Origin: Octopus vulgaris
Taxonomy: Eukaryota
Length of the DNA stretch: 64,000 nt
Assembly: GCA_951406725.2 (NCBI GenBank)
Contig: OX597823.1
Location: 95,356,001 to 95,420,000, forward strand
Reading direction: 5' to 3'
A program made the translations under genes and the position numbers. The notes beneath the pieces are model-generated. The model did no database searches, had not been told where the DNA came from, and worked only from the letters and a program-made list of their open reading frames with translations. Of the stretch, positions 46,121-58,796 are shown in pieces; the stretch's first letter is position 1; each line of letters opens with the position of its first letter.

Positions 46121-48785
<2,665 letters not shown>

Positions 48786-49968: not shown

Positions 49969-50047
49969 CTAAAATTTTGTATCCTCAGCAGATTGTCTCG
50001 GTTTCATAGGGTGAGTTTCTTCCTTTAGAATTACATCATTTTTAGTA
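49969..50047 (-). CDS. SLC22-like copy B probable terminal exon 10
   Basis: Long pyrimidine tract + ccag|T; in phase with exon 9; TKNDVILKEETHPMKPRQSAEDTKF*; brings the total CDS to 1662 nt (553 aa). Confidence 0.65.
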
Positions 50048-50735
50048 CTGGAAGGGAAGAAAGAAAGAAAGAAAGAAAAAGAGGAAAGAGCTAATCAGAC
50101 ATTTAGCAAAATAATGTTTAATATTTGAAATATGATGATAATAGTGATGATGATGATGATGAGGAAGAAAATATTGTTATTACTGATGATGCAGATGATG
50201 ATGATAGTGATGATGATGATGACTATGAATATGATGACGATGATGATGGTGATGATTAAGATTATTATTAAATCAATGATGTTATTTTTGTGAAAACCTT
50301 CCCTTCCACTGCTGTTGCTCCTGGGAGTTAGCTAGTCTCAGCTCATATCCATTCAGGTATCACTGACTCACTCGTTTTCCCCTCCTCTTTTCACTCATGA
50401 AGTGTCCACCCTTCATTGCCCTACATTAAACCCCAGTGGCATTGCAAGGGCAGCCAACAAAAGGAGCAAAGCAGCAACCACATTTTAAGTGGGGAAAATG
50501 CTTTTGTTTTTTTTATCTGTTATTTCTTAATTGCTTCAAGCATGAGACTGTGGCCATACTGGAGCACTGTCTTGAAGAATTTTTTACAGTCTGCTACATA
50601 TTCTGTTGGTGCCCTTTGCTGAACCACTAAGCTCTGGGACTATATACACACCAATGCTGGTTGTCAAGCGGGGGAGGGGGGACAAATAGAGACAGAAACG
50701 CATACACACACGTACATAAATATATTCATGCATGC

Positions 50736-50766
<31 letters not shown>

Positions 50767-51591
50767 CGCGTATATGTGTGTGTGTGTGTGTGTGTGGTTT
50801 GTAGATCCGATAGAGATAGAATCAACAAAAATGTACTATATCTATATCTATCTATATTTACATACATACAACAGGCTTCATACAGTTTCTGTCTACCAAA
50901 TCAACTCATAAGGCTTTGGTTTGCCCGAGGCTATAATAGAGAACACTTTCTCAAGGTGTCATACAGTGGAACAGAACCTGCAACCACGTGGTTGGGAAGC
51001 AAACAGCCTATCAGACAACCGCTTTAATTTTTCTTTTGGAATCTTGTACCTCTAAGAATTTTGAGTTCTTAGTAACTGTTCTTTGGTCTTGCCCATGCTA
51101 CAGCAAAGCTAACCACAACAGTTAATCTTTCCTTTCCAGGACATTGTTCTTCTGGTACTTTCTCCCAGTGGCCATTCACTTACAACACAACAAGAGACAT
51201 GCTAACGGCATCAGAGTAACCAAAGTTGAAGAGTTCCACAATGGCTATGGGCTCAGACCCTTACTCAAACAAAAAACTGCCACCAAGTAACCCAGATTAC
51301 TTCTGACTGAGGAAACCTAGGGCCAAAAGCATTCCAGCCTTAAACAATCTGCTTTGTTTTTTTTACCATTGTGCCTCAATATTCAACGTGTCCTTCTTTT
51401 TCTTTAAGGTGACAGGGTGTAATTTCTAGCAAGTTGAATGATCAATTAAAGGCTGACTTCTTGGTTCATAATGATGATGATGATGATGATGATGATGATA
51501 ATTACTATGTTGTTGATAGTGATGGTTATGATGATGATAATGTTAACAATGATGATGATGATGATGTTTAAATCATATAAGAGACACCTAC

Positions 51592-51755
51592 GCTAACTCC
51601 AGTTCTCCAGATTTGGTCAAATCATTGAAGTCATCCATCATTTTCCGGTTGTTTGTTTCGGGTAACAACAATGACAATAGCCCCGCGATTATGGTGAGTG
51701 CTCCCATAAGAACCATCGGCATTATTCGACCAAGCTTGCCAGAAACCAAATCTGA
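51592..51755 (-). CDS. SLC22-like copy B exon 9
   Basis: Not in ORF track. ttttcag|SDLVSGKLGRIMPMVLMGALTIIAGLLSLLLPETNNRK...ELELA; LPET motif; donor GC|GTAGGT (read-through gives a stop at 51588-51590). Confidence 0.88.
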
Positions 51756-51897
51756 CTGAAAAAAATATACAGAAAAAGGGACAGCAATTTAAAAACATGT
51801 TTTGTTTATTTTGTTGTTGTTTGACACCAGATCATTACTGAACAAGCACACTTATGGTCAAAGTTGTTCCCACGATGACCTCCGTGTTTTAATTTCA

Positions 51898-51899
<2 letters not shown>

Positions 51900-51941
<42 letters not shown>

Positions 51942-52090
51942 TTAAATATATATATATATATATGTATGTATTTAAATATATATATGTATAGGTATGTATG
52001 TATTTAAATATATATATGTATATGTATGTATGTATTTAAATATATATATGTATATGTATGTATGTATTTAAATATATATATGTATATGTA

Positions 52091-52162
<72 letters not shown>

Positions 52163-52288
52163 TATGTATGTATGTATTTAAATATATATATATATGTATG
52201 TATTTAAATATATATATGTATATGTATGTATGTATTTAAATATATATATGTATATGTATGTATGTATTTAAATATATATATGTATATG

Positions 52289-52370
<82 letters not shown>

Positions 52371-52470
52371 TATGTATGTATGTATTTAAATATATATATA
52401 TATATATATGTATATGTATGTATGTATTTAAATATATATATATGTATGTATGTATGTATGTGTATGTATA
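51900..52470. repeat. Compound (TA)n/(TATG)n microsatellite with recurring tatttaaatata units
   Basis: Read directly; other long (TA)n tracts at 10137-10505, 49543-49655, 54380-54450. Confidence 0.95.
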
Positions 52471-52664
52471 TATCTACATACACACACACACATATCGTAA
52501 CATATAATTGTCAACTAAGTGTGGCGTCCCCACACGGGACAGTGCTACTGACTTTCATAGCCCCGGGAAGACATCTCTTCCAGCTGGCTAACGAAAAACA
52601 TATTCTATATCCGATTATTATTTGCGGGGCGAGGTCATCGCTTCAATCCCCAGCCTTACGTGAT

Positions 52665-52711
52665 ACACACGGACTCGAGTTTCTGGGTGGTTATCCGTCC
52701 TCAGCGTGTGT
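52665..52711 (-). ncRNA. Type I hammerhead motif, left arm of palindrome
   Basis: Exact reverse complement of 52866-52912. Confidence 0.8.
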
Positions 52712-52865
52712 TAATCACCAGCTAGTTGTGAAAACTCACCCCACTCGCAAAATAATATATGCTTTTTCCAGCGACAGTTCGTCGCTGATCTCGAAAAAGA
52801 AGTAAGCTGGAAAAAGCACATAGTATTTGCGAGTGGGGTGAGTTTTCACAACTAGCTGGTGATTA

Positions 52866-52912
52866 ACACACGCTGAGGACGGATAACCACCCAGAAACTC
52901 GAGTCCGTGTGT
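52866..52912 (+). ncRNA. Type I hammerhead motif, right arm of palindrome
   Basis: ACACACG-CTGAGGA-CGGATAACCACCCA-GAAAC-TCGA-GTC-CGTGTGT; 7-bp stem I, palindromic stem III, weak stem II. Confidence 0.8.
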
Positions 52913-53241
52913 ATCACGTAAGGCTGGGGATAGGAGCAATGACCTCCCCTTGCAAATACTAATCAGACGTAGAATGTGTGTCGTTAGCCATCTGGAAGAG
53001 ATGTCTTCCTGGGGCTATAAATGCCAGTAGCACTGTCTCGTGTGGGGACGCCACACTTGGTTGGCAATTATATGTTACGATTTCGTATTGCTACTGTTTA
53101 CATCTCGCTCAGAAGTTTAATATAGCGTATATATATATATATATATATATATAGTTGGAATTTACAAAAAACAAAAAACGAAGACAGGTGTGTCACCAAC
53201 AAACAGGTGTATTAGTTTAACGCTCGGGAAGGTGGGAAAGT

Positions 53242-53277
53242 CTTTTACGTTTCGAGCCTTTGCTCTTCAACAGAAAG
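53242..53277 (-). ncRNA. Minimal hammerhead-like motif, variant core CUGUUGA
   Basis: CTTT-CTGTTGA-A-GAGC-AAAG-GCTC-GAAAC-GTA-AAAG; a decayed copy of the same family lies at 10572-10607 (+). Confidence 0.6.
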
Positions 53278-53371
53278 GAAAACGAGGAAATAAACAAAGA
53301 GAGAATAAAAAAGAAAACTTTAGTAGCTAGTGATCAATCATGTCGATGGCCTGACACAGATGGTCATACAC

Positions 53372-53489
<118 letters not shown>

Positions 53490-54382
53490 TTATTACATTG
53501 TTAAGAAAGTTCTTGGACAAGTCATTGTTGCAAGTCATTGAAGCTGATCTAATGCAAACTGCACATCAACTTGTGGTACAGTTTGGCATCTCCCATGTCA
53601 TGATCATCAACCCCCTGCATCGTCTTGGCAAGGTCAACAAGCTTGGAGAATGGGTGCCACATGAATTGACTGAAGTGAACAAACAAGCACGTGTCACTGC
53701 ATGTCAAAGTCTGCTATGGCGAAGCCGAAGATTCGATTGGTTGGAGTCAGTAATCACTAGGGATAAAAAGTGGGTACTGTACTCCAACGTGAGGTGCAGA
53801 CGATCCTGGTGTAGCAAAGGTCAACAGCCAAAACCTTCGCCAAAAAGACCTCTTGTGCAAAAGAAGGTTATGATCTCAGTTTGGTGGGATTGCCGTGGTG
53901 TGATTATGTTGGGTCTTCTCCCACGCAATGCCATTGTTGACAAGGATGTCTACTGCAAACAGATCGACCGTCTAAAGATCGCGCTGGCCGAAAAACGCTC
54001 AAATTTGAAGAAGATAATTTATCACCAAGACACGCGCCAGCACATCGTGCAAAGAAGACGTCCGAGAAGCTGAAGGAGGCGGGCTTGGAGATTAAGGTGC
54101 ACCCACCGTATTCTCCTGACTATAACTTATTCTCTGCCTTGCAACGTGCGATTGGCAATACAGAGTTCGAAAACGAAGATCTGAAATCGTTCCTTTACGA
54201 TTATATTGATTCAAAGCAACGCGATTTCTGGATGAAAGGATTCAAAACTTTGCCTGAAAGATGGCAAAAGGTGATCGATAACGAAGGTGATTACCTTTTG
54301 GATCGATTGTTCTTTGTTGTTTTTTCAATTGTTAATAAAGTGATATGTTAAAAATGTCCGTGAACTTCCTTACCAACTGATA
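53490..54382 (+). mobile_element. Mariner (DD34D) transposon, 5'-truncated, frameshifted
   Basis: WVPHELT, T.D.KWV, KKVMISVWWD, HPPYSPD, LPERWQKVI...GDY; TIR-like end gaacttccttaccaactgaTA. Confidence 0.85.
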
Positions 54383-54392
54383 TGTATGTATA

Positions 54393-54455
<63 letters not shown>

Positions 54456-54999
54456 AATATATCGTATATATATATATGTGTGTGTATATATAAAGAATAT
54501 ATTATAATTATAAAATGTAATTATAAATAACTAAAAAATATAAATGTAAGTACCATATTGCATTATGCCATACCATTCTTAACTGCAGAGAGAAGTTACA
54601 ATCCCCTCCGCAAATCATAGAATGTTACACGTTATACGACGGTGAATAGGTATACAAAATATAAAATTTAATGATATAATATAATGTAAACTAAAAGAAA
54701 TCACATGAAAATATAATATGAAGACGTATATATATATATATTCACATTTTCAAAATGTATATATATATATATATAAACATTTTCAAAATGTATATATATA
54801 TGTATATATATATACATATACATATGGAACCACATGTGGATCATTGGCGATTTTTTCCTCCGTTTTCCTTTTCCCTTTGACCTTCTTCCGTCTCCTGTTT
54901 CTGACGAAGAGCTTTGCTCGAAATGTCTGCTAACACTTTGCATGTACCACGTTGTCGCGTTGTCGTTTTTTCTTGTTTATTCTTCGTTTTCTTTTTATT

Positions 55000-55052
<53 letters not shown>

Positions 55053-55642
55053 TACATATATACCTAGAATTTCAAAGGAATTTATAAAATGATAAAATAG
55101 ACATAAGATAAAAACAAAAACTAAAAATAAAACAAATAAGAAAAGTAAAAAATGAAAATGAAAAATTGAATAATTATAAGTAAATGAATAATAAGGATCG
55201 GTCGTGGTATTCCTAATAACGTAAACTAAGAAATAAAATAAGATGAGGATACCATGGGATAGAGTTTTATAGAATATAATATTACAGGTTAGTATGAATT
55301 ATTATAAAGCTTCTATTTTATATAAAAGTAATCTACTTTTTAGGACCCTTTACCCTTTGAACGGCTGATCGAGAAATTAATTTTTTGTAACTAAATACTT
55401 TAAAACTTCGTATACTGGTAGAATGTCCCATATAAAACATCTTTTACTCTCAGTGTTGTTGAGAAAAGTTTGTATTTTCAAAGCTATTTCGTGTTAAAGT
55501 TGTCGTATTTCGGTAATTTCAACGAATCAATGAGGTGTATACATCTGAATAAAAGTACTGCTGTTGTTTGTCAACAACAACTTCCGGCGGTGTATATTTC
55601 GCTTGTCACTGTTATTTATGACATCGTTCGTGCGTTTGTACT

Positions 55643-55745
55643 GGTTTTAGGTTTAGGGTTAGGGTTTGAGTTTTAGAGTTAGGGTTAGGATTAAGGTTGG
55701 GTTTGGGGTTTTAGGGTTAGGGTTGAGATTTTAGGGTTAGAGTTA
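55643..55745 (+). repeat. Degenerate (TTAGGG)-like tract
   Basis: ggttttaggtttagggttagggtttgag...ttagggttagggttgag. Confidence 0.75.
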
Positions 55746-56065
55746 TGGAAATAGTGAAAAATGAAGAAATTGGAGGGGAGTGGGAAGGGGAGGGGGGCAA
55801 ACAAGACTTACCGAAAATAGTAGCTGAAAAGCAGGAAAATTCATCAACCATTAGTTTCTGTTGTTAAGATCAACAAAACTATGCAGTCATGGTTGTATGG
55901 TAAGAAGCTTGGTTCCCAACCACACAGTTCCTTGTTCAGTCCCACTGCATGGCACCTTGGGCAAGTGTCTTTTATTATAGCCTTGGGCCAGCCAAAGACT
56001 TGTGAGTGGATTCAGTGGACAGAAACTGAAAGAAGCCTGCCATATATTTATATATATATATATAT

Positions 56066-56509
56066 AAAGTAGTTGTATACTGTCAATTTAATGTGACCGC
56101 CCCATGAAGGGAATCACACTACTGCTACTTAGCCCTAGGAAGCAGCAACGCTTCCTGTCGGCTTTGACACATTTCCTTTGTCTTTATGTTTACAAAGGGG
56201 AGATAAGCACCTCCACCCAGCTAAGCCTGCAGCAAGAGACTAGTTTCTGAGTCCTTGCTCATCATCAGTCTGGAGTAGCATGGCCTGCTTGTTGGAGATG
56301 CCTATCTAGCTCTTGTAAATATAAGAATTCAAGTGAAATAAATTCACTGATCACAAAAATAGAAATAATACATTTCTCTTTATCTCATAAGGACACAGGA
56401 AACGTGTTAAGGCCGACAGGAAGCGTTGCTGCGTCCTAGGGCTGAATAGCAGTTGTATGATTCCATTCATGGGACTGTTACACTAAGTTGACAGTATGCA
56501 ACTACTTTA
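56066..56509. repeat. Inverted-repeat element (about 120-bp imperfect arms) with internal hammerhead
   Basis: aaagtagttgtatactgtcaa...cctaggaagcagcaacgcttcctgtcggc / gccgacaggaagcgttgctgcgtcctagg...ttgacagtatgcaactacttt; sits in (TA)n. Confidence 0.85.
56233..56273 (-). ncRNA. Minimal type I hammerhead motif
   Basis: AGA-CTGATGA-TGAG-CAAGGA-CTCA-GAAAC-TA-GTC-TCT; palindromic ACTAGT stem III. Confidence 0.8.
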
Positions 56510-56545
56510 TCGTATTACTACTGCATAAATCTCTCTAAGATATTT

Positions 56546-56594
<49 letters not shown>

Positions 56595-56715
56595 TATATA
56601 TACATAAAAATTTAATTTAATTCTGTATGTAAAAATTATTTTTAATCTTCGGATATTTTTAAAATTTGCTAGGCCACTGGTTTTAATTGATTAATATCAA
56701 TTTCTACCCGTATTC

Positions 56716-56765
<50 letters not shown>

Positions 56766-56768
<3 letters not shown>

Positions 56769-57283
56769 TTAAGTTAAGTTAATTTTGGGGCTCAAAAAGC
56801 AAAAAGCAAGGCCATGTAAGGAGACATGGAGTTATGTACAGGGGTGTTCAGGCAAAGAGTTCAGGCCATTTCTGGTCAAGAGAGACCTTGAACCGAGCGG
56901 TCGTCGGCATCTTCACTATCTCGTCCGGCAGCTTATTCCACGGATCCGCAACCCTGACGGAGAAAGCCCTTCTCCTTCGATTGAGATGAAATCGTCGCAG
57001 ATAGAGCTTTTCGGAGTGACCCCGCAGCCGACGCTCTGGAGCAGGAGTGAAGAACAGCTCTTTCGAGAGGTTACACTTTCCGCTTATGATGTTGTGAGCA
57101 AGAATGAGATCACCACGGCGTCGTCGTTTTTCTAGAGAATAAGGGTCGAGCGTCTTCGGCCTTTCTTCATAAGACAAATGCTTGAGACCAAGAACCATGC
57201 GGGTAGCTAGCTTCTGGACTCTTTCGGGATGATGTATGTCTTTGAGGAGATAAGGAGAAGAGGCTTGAATCCCGTACTCCAAC
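56766..57283 (-). mobile_element. CR1-like LINE 3' fragment
   Basis: LEYGIQASSPY...ERVQKLATR...SYEER...LEKRRRRGDLI...WNKLP; short (TTAAC)n tail next to (TA)n. Confidence 0.85.
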
Positions 57284-57969
57284 ACACATACATACATGCA
57301 AGTGTGTATGTTTGCATTTATCCCCACCACTGCTTGACAATAAATATTGGTTTGTTTATATCCATGCAACTCAGCAGTTCGGCAAAAAAGACTGATACAA
57401 TAAGTATATTATCATTATCATAATGTAACCTCTGGTCTCCATGCCGGCATGATTCGGATGGTTTGATACGGAGCTGTCTGGATTCCAAATGTCGGTTGTG
57501 GTATGGTTTCTACGGCTAGATGCCCCCAAATAATAAGCACTGGACTCGATTAATTCGATGAAATTCTTCAAGGTAGTGCCCCAGCATGGCCACCTTTTAG
57601 TGACTGAAACAAGTAAAAGATAAAAGATTAGTCTACAGAAATACTGTGTCTTCTTTCTGCTTCCGTTTTTAATACTACAATGTTTTCCATTTTGATTCGC
57701 TAACTGTATAATCCCTATTCCGGTTATTGAGCCAAAACATATCCAAGTCGGGCACCAACTGCATCACTTTTATCCATTTGGGAGATGGCATGCAACGAAA
57801 ATGGACAACTTGCATTCTTCGCTGATAAATATATTTCGAAAATAAATCGTTTTTAATACCAACTTGCTGCCGACCAAAGCTGGTCCTATGAAACAAACTT
57901 TCTGTTTTACGGTGATAATCAAAATTGCACATCAGATTTAGGTTCCAAGCAGCAGCTTAATAACAGTTT

Positions 57970-58180
57970 CAAATTTTGGCACAAGGCCAGCAGTTTCGAG
58001 GGAGTTGGGGTAGGTCAACTACATCAACCCCAATATCTAACTGGTACTTATTTTATCGATCCCGAAAGGATGACAGGCAATGTTGACCTCAGTGGAATTC
58101 CAACTCAGAATGTAAAGATGGACGAGATTCTGCCAAGAATTTGTTCCAGTCTGTTAATAATTCTGCCATCTCACCACCTG
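57970..58180 (-). mobile_element. Second SINE family (representative copy)
   Basis: ctggtacttattttatcga.cccgaaaggatga.aggcaa.gttgacctc.g.ggaatt..aactcagaatgtaaa; also near 32695(-) and 42270(+). Confidence 0.6.
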
Positions 58181-58536
58181 AAGTAGCAGCTTAATAATGA
58201 CAAAGTTATTCCACTAAATTCTTCGTTATTTCAAAATTAATTAGAACAAAGGCTGTGTATTTCAGAAATGTGGTAAGAAATGGCTTAGTTATTTTACTAA
58301 ATTCTTTGAAACAAATACAGTGAATTTCATCCCAAATACGGTAACAAATATGTTTATAGCCATTGTGCCTGGTCTGATGGATAATATTTCCTTATTCGTA
58401 TGTTGTTATGTAAATCCATAGAAAGATAAGCCTAGCTCTGTCTCTTTACTAATTGTGCTGGTTCCATGATGGGTGGACTAACAAAAGGGGCGAACAACAA
58501 AACAAATAGCAAGTCTGAAAGTATCTAAATACTTAC

Positions 58537-58718
58537 AAAGTTGAGAGTATAAGGTGCCAAAGCGCCGCCAACACGTGCACAGATGGCCAAAGCCCCCAAT
58601 GCACCGTTTCTTATACAAGTTGGATATAATTCCAAAGAGTATAAAATCACGATTCCAAAAGCTGCAGTGATAAACAAACGGCCAAATATCGAACTGGCAG
58701 TTAACATCCATCGATGGG
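58537..58718 (-). CDS. SLC22-like copy B exon 8
   Basis: ttttcag|CC (phase 1); HRWMLTASSIFGRLFITAAF...ELYPTCIRNGALG...ARVGGALAPY; donor TTT|GTAAGT; 182 nt. Confidence 0.92.
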
Positions 58719-58796
58719 CTGAAAAAGAAAAAGATAAAAGACAGAAGTCTTTAGTAAAAGAGAGAAAAAACCCTTTTCGGTATTTCACAGGCATGT

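What the first reader, a model, noticed from the sequence alone, without database searches (positions are those of the whole stretch)
52494..53127. 590-bp palindrome carrying a mirror-image pair of identical hammerheads inside transporter intron 8
Seen: arms of about 280 bp around a 33-nt spacer. Each arm holds the same 47-nt hammerhead, so a transcript from either strand contains one sense ribozyme plus its perfect antisense. The inner parts of the arms are nearly identical and the outer parts diverge more. A ~45-nt unpaired extension follows the right arm before (TA)n. Inference: this is an inverted Penelope pLTR pair with its 'tail'. The RNA could switch between a cleaving hammerhead fold and a long inactive hairpin, which would also be a likely ADAR substrate. 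In the copy-B pre-mRNA the antisense arm is made first, which should block the ribozyme.
Basis: partly seen in the sequence, partly recalled or inferred. Interest (0 to 1): 0.75.

Follow-up and report, generated by a model that had tools for sequence, protein, structure and literature searches.

The report
Mirror-image insertion of a ribozyme retroelement
This palindrome in an octopus transporter intron is two back-to-back copies of a common non-coding repeat carrying a hammerhead-ribozyme motif, likely inserted by a Penelope-type jumping gene in a layout already known from other animals, and its ribozyme is predicted to be locked in a hairpin rather than acting as a switch.

Summary
Arms of 279/276 nt are 92% alike, each has a 47-nt type I hammerhead motif, a 45-nt extension follows the right arm, and the element lies in intron 8 of a minus-strand SLC22 gene. 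It is two partial copies of a 357-nt ORF-less repeat joined head to head; the 'spacer' is the left copy's own 5' part. Among 101 genomic sites examined, 44 are head-to-head, none tail-to-tail, and 40 hold tandem junctions. 3' ends fall at two points 45 nt apart, and 27 of 44 pairs join a tailed with a tail-less end. That is the published Penelope insertion layout on a retrozyme-type unit. No ORF-bearing element with this unit as its pLTR was found. The switch idea fails in the calculations: the hammerhead fold costs 93 kcal/mol on either strand, and both arms share a stem-II mismatch. The 108-nt perfect core is peculiar to this locus and its paralogue and is best read as arm-to-arm conversion. 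Earlier scan notes describe like elements elsewhere in this genome. Verdict: ordinary, a new member of a known kind.

The parts
52494..52805 (-). Left copy: positions 4-312 of the 357-nt unit, tail-less 3' end at 52494; includes the 33-nt 'spacer' (52773-52805) as its 5' part
   Evidence: BLAST against a natural full unit (L012:1465-1821); junction letters
52806..53126 (+). Right copy: positions 37-357 of the unit, ending at the family's tailed 3' end
53082..53126 (+). 45-nt tail: the stretch between the family's two preferred 3' ends (unit positions about 304-312 and 355-357)
   Evidence: end counts (52 ends at unit positions 301-320, 66 at 341-357)
52866..52912 (+). Type I hammerhead motif: helix I 7 bp, core at 52873-52879 and 52894-52897, helix II with an A-C mismatch at 52883, 2-bp helix III with a self-complementary loop, predicted cleavage after 52905
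   Evidence: sequence, motif scan, family columns, folding
52665..52711 (-). Identical hammerhead motif on the pre-mRNA strand, with the same stem II mismatch (52694)
52646..52931 (.). Outer limits of the perfect 108-nt tracts (52646-52753 and 52824-52931), which carry 4 rare variants shared by both arms; likely conversion tract
52769..52787 (.). Small 7-bp hairpin native to the unit, next to the head-to-head junction; 3-nt microhomology at 52806-52808
   Evidence: sequence, MFE structure, family letters
51902..52493 (.). (TA)n/(TATG)n/(CA)n microsatellite left of the insertion; (TA)n also at 53128-53153. No clear target-site duplication here
58537..58710 (-). Coding exon 8 of the SLC22 host gene (approximate limits)
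51591..51755 (-). Coding exon 9 of the SLC22 host gene (tblastn match limits, approximate)

Best explanation
The palindrome is two partial copies, joined head to head, of a dispersed 357-nt ORF-less repeat carrying a type I hammerhead motif (a retrozyme-type unit), likely inserted in one event by a Penelope-like element's enzymes, and its ribozyme is predicted to be inactive here. Shown: unit, boundaries, family layout, intron position. Inferred mechanism: the borrowed GIY-YIG/RT protein nicked both strands of an AT-rich microsatellite and began reverse transcription at the unit's two internal start sites, one on each strand, giving a tailed and a tail-less outer end. The two 5'-truncated cDNAs were joined at a 3-nt microhomology. 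The arms then aged independently (22 differences), until a later arm-to-arm conversion (about 0.75 likely) copied 108 nt, including a stem II mutation, from one arm to the other. A tandem gene duplication then copied the locus. In the pre-mRNA the antisense arm comes first and would zip up the sense arm as it emerges, leaving a duplex of about 280 bp that would be an ordinary ADAR target.
For: Family: 2867 first-look candidates, 40 scored. Of 101 distinct sites, 44 are head-to-head, 0 tail-to-tail, 21 tandem only and 36 single; 8 of 19 exact-motif hits, a set not chosen for inversion, are head-to-head (counted by eye). 41 head-to-tail junctions in 40 of 101 sites run from unit end to unit start with no ORF. 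27 of 44 inverted sites pair a tailed with a tail-less end; 1 has two tails, 1 none, 15 a truncated end; p=1.5e-6 for 26 of 28. Microsatellite follows 79 of 117 outer ends against 12% background; 2 of 30 sites have non-simple 13- and 12-bp duplications around the whole inverted unit. The inversion point varies from site to site. Folding: +92.7 kcal/mol to form the hammerhead on either strand; 95-98% of the growing sense arm pairs with the antisense arm in equilibrium folds of prefixes. Conversion: 0 differences in 108 columns against 22 in 167; run length p about 2e-4; longest run at most 54 in 34 other inverted sites and 80 in 1333 random pairs; 4 rare shared variants inside the tract; no near-identical source copy for either outer arm (best other hits 91% and 87% over the full query).
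Against: No autonomous element sharing this unit was found among the 30 GIY-YIG loci fetched (of 148 matches, 6136 candidates), 12 longer stretches, or two followed-up neighbours, so the mobilising protein is inferred from the layout alone. Target duplications of 6 bp or more were no commoner than in shuffled pairs overall (7 of 30 against 23%), and this locus has none. Only 6 of 101 sites hold two same-strand hammerheads, fewer than a classic multimeric retrozyme array would suggest. Rfam does not score the motif. The family carries an extra A between helix II and the GAAA box (106 of 117), which I did not see described in the parts of PMC4209133 that I read. Core positions look more conserved than others in the pooled set (3.7% against 6.8%), not in the 10 pieces found without the motif (7.3% against 7.3%), and mildly in 46 whole-arm pieces (4.2% against 6.5%, p=0.04), so pure neutral decay is not proved. 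Arms within a site share rare variants twice as often as random pairs (0.85% against 0.39%). No cleavage or RNA data.
Confidence: 0.85

Rival explanations
1. The unit is the true pLTR of an ORF-bearing Penelope-like element, and this is a doubly 5'-truncated stub of it.
For: All insertion hallmarks are those of EN+ Penelope-like elements. Four of 192 family loci had Penelope ORF pieces on the same strand within about 1.5 kb; one abuts the unit and one lies just 5' of ORF sequence. The GIY-YIG search was dominated by one family and scored 150 of 6136 candidates.
Against: The unit's end runs straight into its start at 40 of 101 sites. Both close junctions were one-offs: 0 of 29 other copies of the first element and 0 of 19 of the second carry the unit, and several copies of the first element show a different minimal hammerhead downstream. 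No frame of the unit resembles the Penelope proteins tested.
Confidence: 0.08
2. The host keeps the perfect duplex on purpose: a ribozyme/hairpin switch or an editing or small-RNA substrate regulating the transporter pre-mRNA.
For: The perfect tract covers the hammerhead, is unique among the 36 inverted sites with measurable overlap apart from the paralogue, and has no difference among the four arm copies in two paralogues. Octopus had the highest editing rate in a 22-species survey (10.1101/2020.01.19.911685, passages).
Against: 93 kcal/mol gap; stem II mismatch copied to both arms; helix III needs a second sense copy. The paralogues differ at only 7 sites (one a 2-nt indel) over the element, so about 2 changes were expected in the tracts and none is unremarkable (my estimate). 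A 108-nt tract placed at random in 275 would cover the motif about one time in three (my estimate). Mirror pairs of hammerheads occur at 16 of 101 sites.
Confidence: 0.04
3. The perfect tract arose at insertion (one cDNA folding back and copying itself, outer parts from two different source RNAs) or is an assembly artefact.
For: Self-priming at junction palindromes was proposed for inverted Penelope copies (PMC3846280, passages), and a small hairpin lies beside this junction.
Against: A young insertion needs close source copies and none was found; an old one would have let the tract diverge. The tract stops 18 nt short of the loop, where older differences shared by both paralogues remain. Both paralogues show the same tract.
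Confidence: 0.12
4. A MITE of a DNA transposon with long terminal inverted repeats.
For: Long inverted arms in a TA-rich target; a mariner-type remnant lies 200 bp away.
Against: Ends are asymmetric by 45 nt; 57 of 101 sites are not inverted; the inversion point varies over the whole unit; tandem junctions and 5' truncation are retro-features.
Confidence: 0.01

Closest known systems
Metazoan non-LTR retrozymes (Cervera and de la Pena 2020, PMC7229834: section 14 and passages read; Li, Clavereau and Pollet preprint 10.64898/2026.07.22.740005: part 1 of 5 and passages read)
   Same: ORF-less unit of about 350 nt (mussel 350-390 bp), type I hammerhead, head-to-tail repeats, thousands of candidate copies, units folding better than shuffles (z -1.7 to -4.6 for 7 of 7 circular folds); proposed to depend on Penelope-like elements.
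   Different: Here partial tandems and head-to-head pairs dominate and full dimers are rare (6 of 101 sites). 'Inverted' does not occur in the main text of PMC7229834 and only in a reference of the preprint; 'tail' does not occur there. Circular RNA and cleavage were not tested here.
Insertions of EN+ Penelope-like elements with inverted pLTR and tail (Arkhipova et al. 2013, PMC3846280, passages; Craig et al. 2021, PMC8557442, passages; Frangieh et al. 2024, PMC11167929, parts 1-2 of 4)
   Same: Head-to-head inverted 5'-truncated copy, tail on one end only, AT-rich or microsatellite targets, variable short target duplications, two reverse-transcription start sites bounding the tail.
   Different: No RT-GIY-YIG ORF belongs to the unit; the tail is 45-53 nt against the published 30-40 nt.
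Minimal and atypical type I hammerheads of metazoan Penelope-like elements (Cervera and de la Pena 2014, PMC4209133: parts 1-2 of 4 and a search of 1 of 2 supplementary files)
   Same: [quoted passage not shown]
   Different: An extra A precedes the GAAA box in this family; this locus has a mismatch in helix II and a perfect antisense partner.

Membership tests
Type I hammerhead ribozyme | Core CUGANGA, GAAA and UH in type I order | tested here: met
Type I hammerhead ribozyme | Helices I, II and III able to form | tested here: inconclusive
   Single arm: P(I) 0.81-0.86, P(II) 0.36-0.38 (0.96 in a copy without the mismatch), P(III) at most 0.006; in the palindrome all 0.000. A sister subfamily keeps helix II pairing and swaps one self-complementary loop 3 for another, but my pattern fixed that loop.
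Type I hammerhead ribozyme | Match to an Rfam hammerhead model | tested here: not met
Type I hammerhead ribozyme | Self-cleavage | not testable with these tools
   needs an in vitro assay
Non-LTR retrozyme | ORF-less unit of 170-400 nt with a type I hammerhead in head-to-tail repeats | tested here: met
   357-nt unit; 41 junctions in 40 of 101 sites; no Pfam hit for the three frames over the element that were scanned
Non-LTR retrozyme | Two consecutive units with complete hammerheads (the preprint's 'active' criterion) | tested here: not met
   Not at this locus; 6 of 101 sites have two same-strand motif-spanning pieces
Non-LTR retrozyme | Circular RNA in cells | not testable with these tools
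   only assembled contigs of runs guessed to be RNA were available
Penelope-like element insertion layout | Head-to-head inverted 5'-truncated copy | tested here: met
   44 head-to-head against 0 tail-to-tail of 101
Penelope-like element insertion layout | Optional tail at one end | tested here: met
   two 3' end clusters; 27 of 44 mixed
Penelope-like element insertion layout | AT-rich or microsatellite target, short variable duplication | tested here: inconclusive
   microsatellite at 79 of 117 ends against 12%; duplications clear in 2 of 30, overall no excess over control, none at this locus
Autonomous Penelope-like element (pLTR of) | RT-GIY-YIG ORF bounded by this repeat | tested here: not met
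   none in the loci examined; the sample is partial
MITE | Fixed terminal inverted repeats, fixed length, fixed target duplication | tested here: not met

The most novel reading that the evidence does not exclude
Arm-to-arm conversion at this locus is kept up by selection, so that two transporter paralogues carry a perfect 108-bp duplex over a dead ribozyme: a retroelement fossil adopted by the host as an editing or small-RNA substrate that tunes the transporter pre-mRNA.
Probability: 0.04. Interest if true: 0.6.

Novelty: new member of a known kind. Interest (0 to 1): 0.2.

Why it matters
The locus itself is ordinary: one aged copy among probably thousands. The family is a modest, useful data point. 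It is an ORF-less retrozyme-type unit that carries the Penelope integration signature (inversion always head-to-head, one tailed and one tail-less end), which is structural support for the proposed, still indirect, dependence of animal retrozymes on Penelope enzymes, and it fits the two start sites found in vitro. I found no paper describing this octopus family (searches; no 'ribozyme', 'hammerhead' or 'retrozyme' in the main text of the octopus repeat annotation PMC13282606; its supplements and repeat library were not seen and may hold the family under another name). If the perfect duplex were selected, it would be a case of host adoption in an animal with very high RNA editing.

Tried and rejected
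Rfam at gathering score (whole window) and at E<=10 (751 nt): no hammerhead; only microsatellite-driven miRNA hits. Autonomous partner: no match of the unit to 30 GIY-YIG loci (best E 0.34). Of 12 longer stretches, one held a decayed unit fragment about 600 bp outside an inverted Penelope copy, taken as a chance neighbour. Of four family loci with Penelope ORF pieces nearby, two were followed up and proved one-off junctions and two were separated by other sequence. A GIY-YIG hit 6 kb from one copy was an isolated fragment. RNA: no RNA holder listed; contigs of runs guessed to be RNA held other family copies, mostly under 95% alike, none spanning this locus; this is no evidence on expression or editing. 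Editing fossil in the DNA: A>G/T>C counts 4/4 of 25 and 5/2 of 15 in the two arms, no excess; one short piece elsewhere (L005, 6 A>G of 11) passed the screen. 'The core is conserved because the ribozyme is selected here': rejected, since the tract copies a stem II mismatch found in 5 of 114 other pieces. My first reading of purely neutral decay of the core across the family was tested and left open. One search failed for lack of coordinates and was redone; sites within 60 nt of a locus edge and duplicates of one site were dropped there before counting. The 101 sites include this locus and its paralogue, and were partly picked for strong or inverted hits, so 44% is not an unbiased rate. A search of earlier scan notes by sequence found nothing.

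Full report
Observation. The left arm (52494-52772) and right arm (52806-53081) align at 254 of 276 columns around 33 nt, and the right side runs on for 45 nt to 53126 before (TA)n. The same hammerhead-type motif lies on each strand, pointing outwards. A protein identical to the exon at 58537-58710 is labelled organic cation transporter of Octopus vulgaris. A 552-aa relative maps as ten minus-strand exons, with the element between the eighth and ninth. The gene is tandemly duplicated; the copy 66 kb upstream holds the same palindrome, differing at 7 sites.

What it is. A search with the right arm gave 2867 candidates, 40 scored. In many loci the last base of the arm is followed by 36 nt and then the arm's start again; those 36 nt match the reverse complement of the 'spacer'. 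The element is thus built from a 357-nt unit: the left copy is unit positions 4-312 on the minus strand, the right copy 37-357 on the plus strand, joined 5' to 5' at a 3-nt microhomology beside a small native hairpin. I classed 101 distinct sites: 44 head-to-head, none tail-to-tail, 21 tandem only, 36 single. Forty sites hold 41 direct end-to-start junctions with no ORF. Outer 3' ends cluster at positions 301-320 (52) and 341-357 (66). Among the 44 inverted sites, 27 join one of each, 1 has two tails, 1 none and 15 have a truncated end. Microsatellite follows 79 of 117 such ends against 12% background; two of 30 sites have 13- and 12-bp non-simple duplications, but duplications overall do not exceed the control. 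Copies differ from the family majority by a median 8.3% (157 pieces), roughly 20 million years on the scale used in PMC13282606 (passages; my inference). A sister subfamily, about 70-80% alike, has the same unit and layout (60 exact pattern hits, 30 examined). Hammerheads on both strands occur at 16 of 101 sites, so the mirror pair is not special.

Known layout. Arkhipova et al. describe an inverted pLTR, a tail optional on one end, 8-10 bp duplications and a mostly head-to-head arrangement (PMC3846280, passages). Craig et al. draw the same (PMC8557442, passages). Frangieh et al. show that the tail lies between two internal reverse-transcription start sites and that both target strands are cut and extended (PMC11167929, parts 1-2). 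Cervera and de la Pena report dual hammerheads on opposite strands 100-700 bp apart and low activity of such motifs (PMC4209133, parts 1-2), and 350-390 bp hammerhead repeats in mussel (PMC7229834, section 14).

The partner. The genome holds Penelope-type ORFs of 781 aa with RT and GIY-YIG domains, but none of the loci examined carries this unit as its terminal repeat. Four of 192 family loci had Penelope ORF pieces nearby; the two closest junctions were absent from 29 and 19 other copies of those elements. So the unit works like a Penelope insertion but is not shown to be the pLTR of an autonomous element. It fits best as a retrozyme-type passenger; the mobilising protein is inferred.

The ribozyme. 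Core and helix I are intact. Both arms carry A at the third position of helix II where 107 of 114 family pieces have G, lowering the computed probability of helix II from 0.96 to 0.36-0.38. Helix III is below 0.01 in any monomer tested, as expected for a dimer-dependent motif. In the full palindrome the hammerhead fold costs 92.7 kcal/mol on either strand, and equilibrium folds of growing minus-strand transcripts keep 95-98% of the sense arm paired to the antisense arm (not a kinetic simulation). Because the arms point outwards, any read-through transcript makes the antisense arm first. A switch is therefore not supported. That the duplex would be edited follows from general knowledge of ADAR and from the high editing rate in octopus (10.1101/2020.01.19.911685, passages); I had no usable RNA data.

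The perfect core. Arms of other inverted sites differ by 14.0%, close to the 15.0% of random pairs, with longest identical runs of at most 54 nt in 34 sites. Here 108 columns are identical while 22 of the other 167 differ (p about 1e-5, with the tract chosen after the fact; permutation 40 of 200000). Four rare variants, the stem II change among them, are shared inside the tract. No close source copy exists for either outer arm among the hits scored. The simplest reading is one gene-conversion event after the arms had aged and before the gene duplicated; conversion between palindrome arms is recalled knowledge, and one search gave only a search listing. Fold-back synthesis at insertion, an assembly artefact and selection remain minor rivals.

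Against my reading. The mobiliser was not found; Rfam is silent; the pooled family shows a more conserved core, which vanished in the 10 pieces found without the motif but not fully in 46 whole-arm pieces; site sampling was biased towards strong and partly towards inverted hits. Earlier scan notes, read after my reading was fixed, report like elements in this and other genomes; they are unchecked notes, not support. One of them prompted the editing test, which was negative here.

Verdict. A real, well-observed but ordinary insertion: new member of a known kind, interest 0.2.

Noticed in passing
G000 family columns, unit position 125 (window 52893): The family has an A between helix II and the GAAA box (106 of 117 pieces), opposite the C that follows the first core box. 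Its effect on cleavage is unknown.
   Followed up: partly
L210-L239: Sister subfamily of the same unit, about 70-80% alike, with different loop 2, a G-U in helix II and a different self-complementary loop 3; same inverted and tandem layouts.
   Followed up: partly
L247:5341-6351: A Penelope endonuclease region cut mid-domain and joined directly to a full sister unit, with no remainder after it; possibly a template switch between the two RNAs. Unique among 30 copies.
   Followed up: partly
L248:2465-8545: An inverted sister-unit pair directly 5' of decayed Penelope ORF sequence; unique among 20 copies.
   Followed up: partly
L118-L122: Young Penelope-like family with a 781-aa RT-GIY-YIG frame, a cysteine motif before the nuclease and a second long frame upstream (479 aa in L121); many open-frame copies.
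   Followed up: partly
L120:4038-4400: Short tandem repeats after the Penelope ORF, each with a hammerhead-like pair of boxes beginning with U instead of C.
   Followed up: no
L003:1057-1837 and L035: 13- and 12-bp target duplications enclosing whole inverted units, showing that both arms belong to one insertion.
   Followed up: yes
window 53327-54348 (+): Broken mariner-type transposase in the same intron, about 200 bp from the element.
   Followed up: no
window 46859-48709 (-) and 360-2744: LINE-type RT frame of 617 codons with an inverted 98.6% copy near the window start.
   Followed up: no
window 55643-55756: Degenerate TTAGGG-like repeats inside intron 8.
   Followed up: no
window 6997-33386 and 49972-58731 (-): Tandem SLC22 paralogues, segments 94-98% alike, period about 57-67 kb; a third copy begins further upstream.
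   Followed up: partly
L005:1269-1395: Short family piece with 6 A>G among 11 changes, the only one outside this locus to pass a screen for editing-type excess.
   Followed up: no
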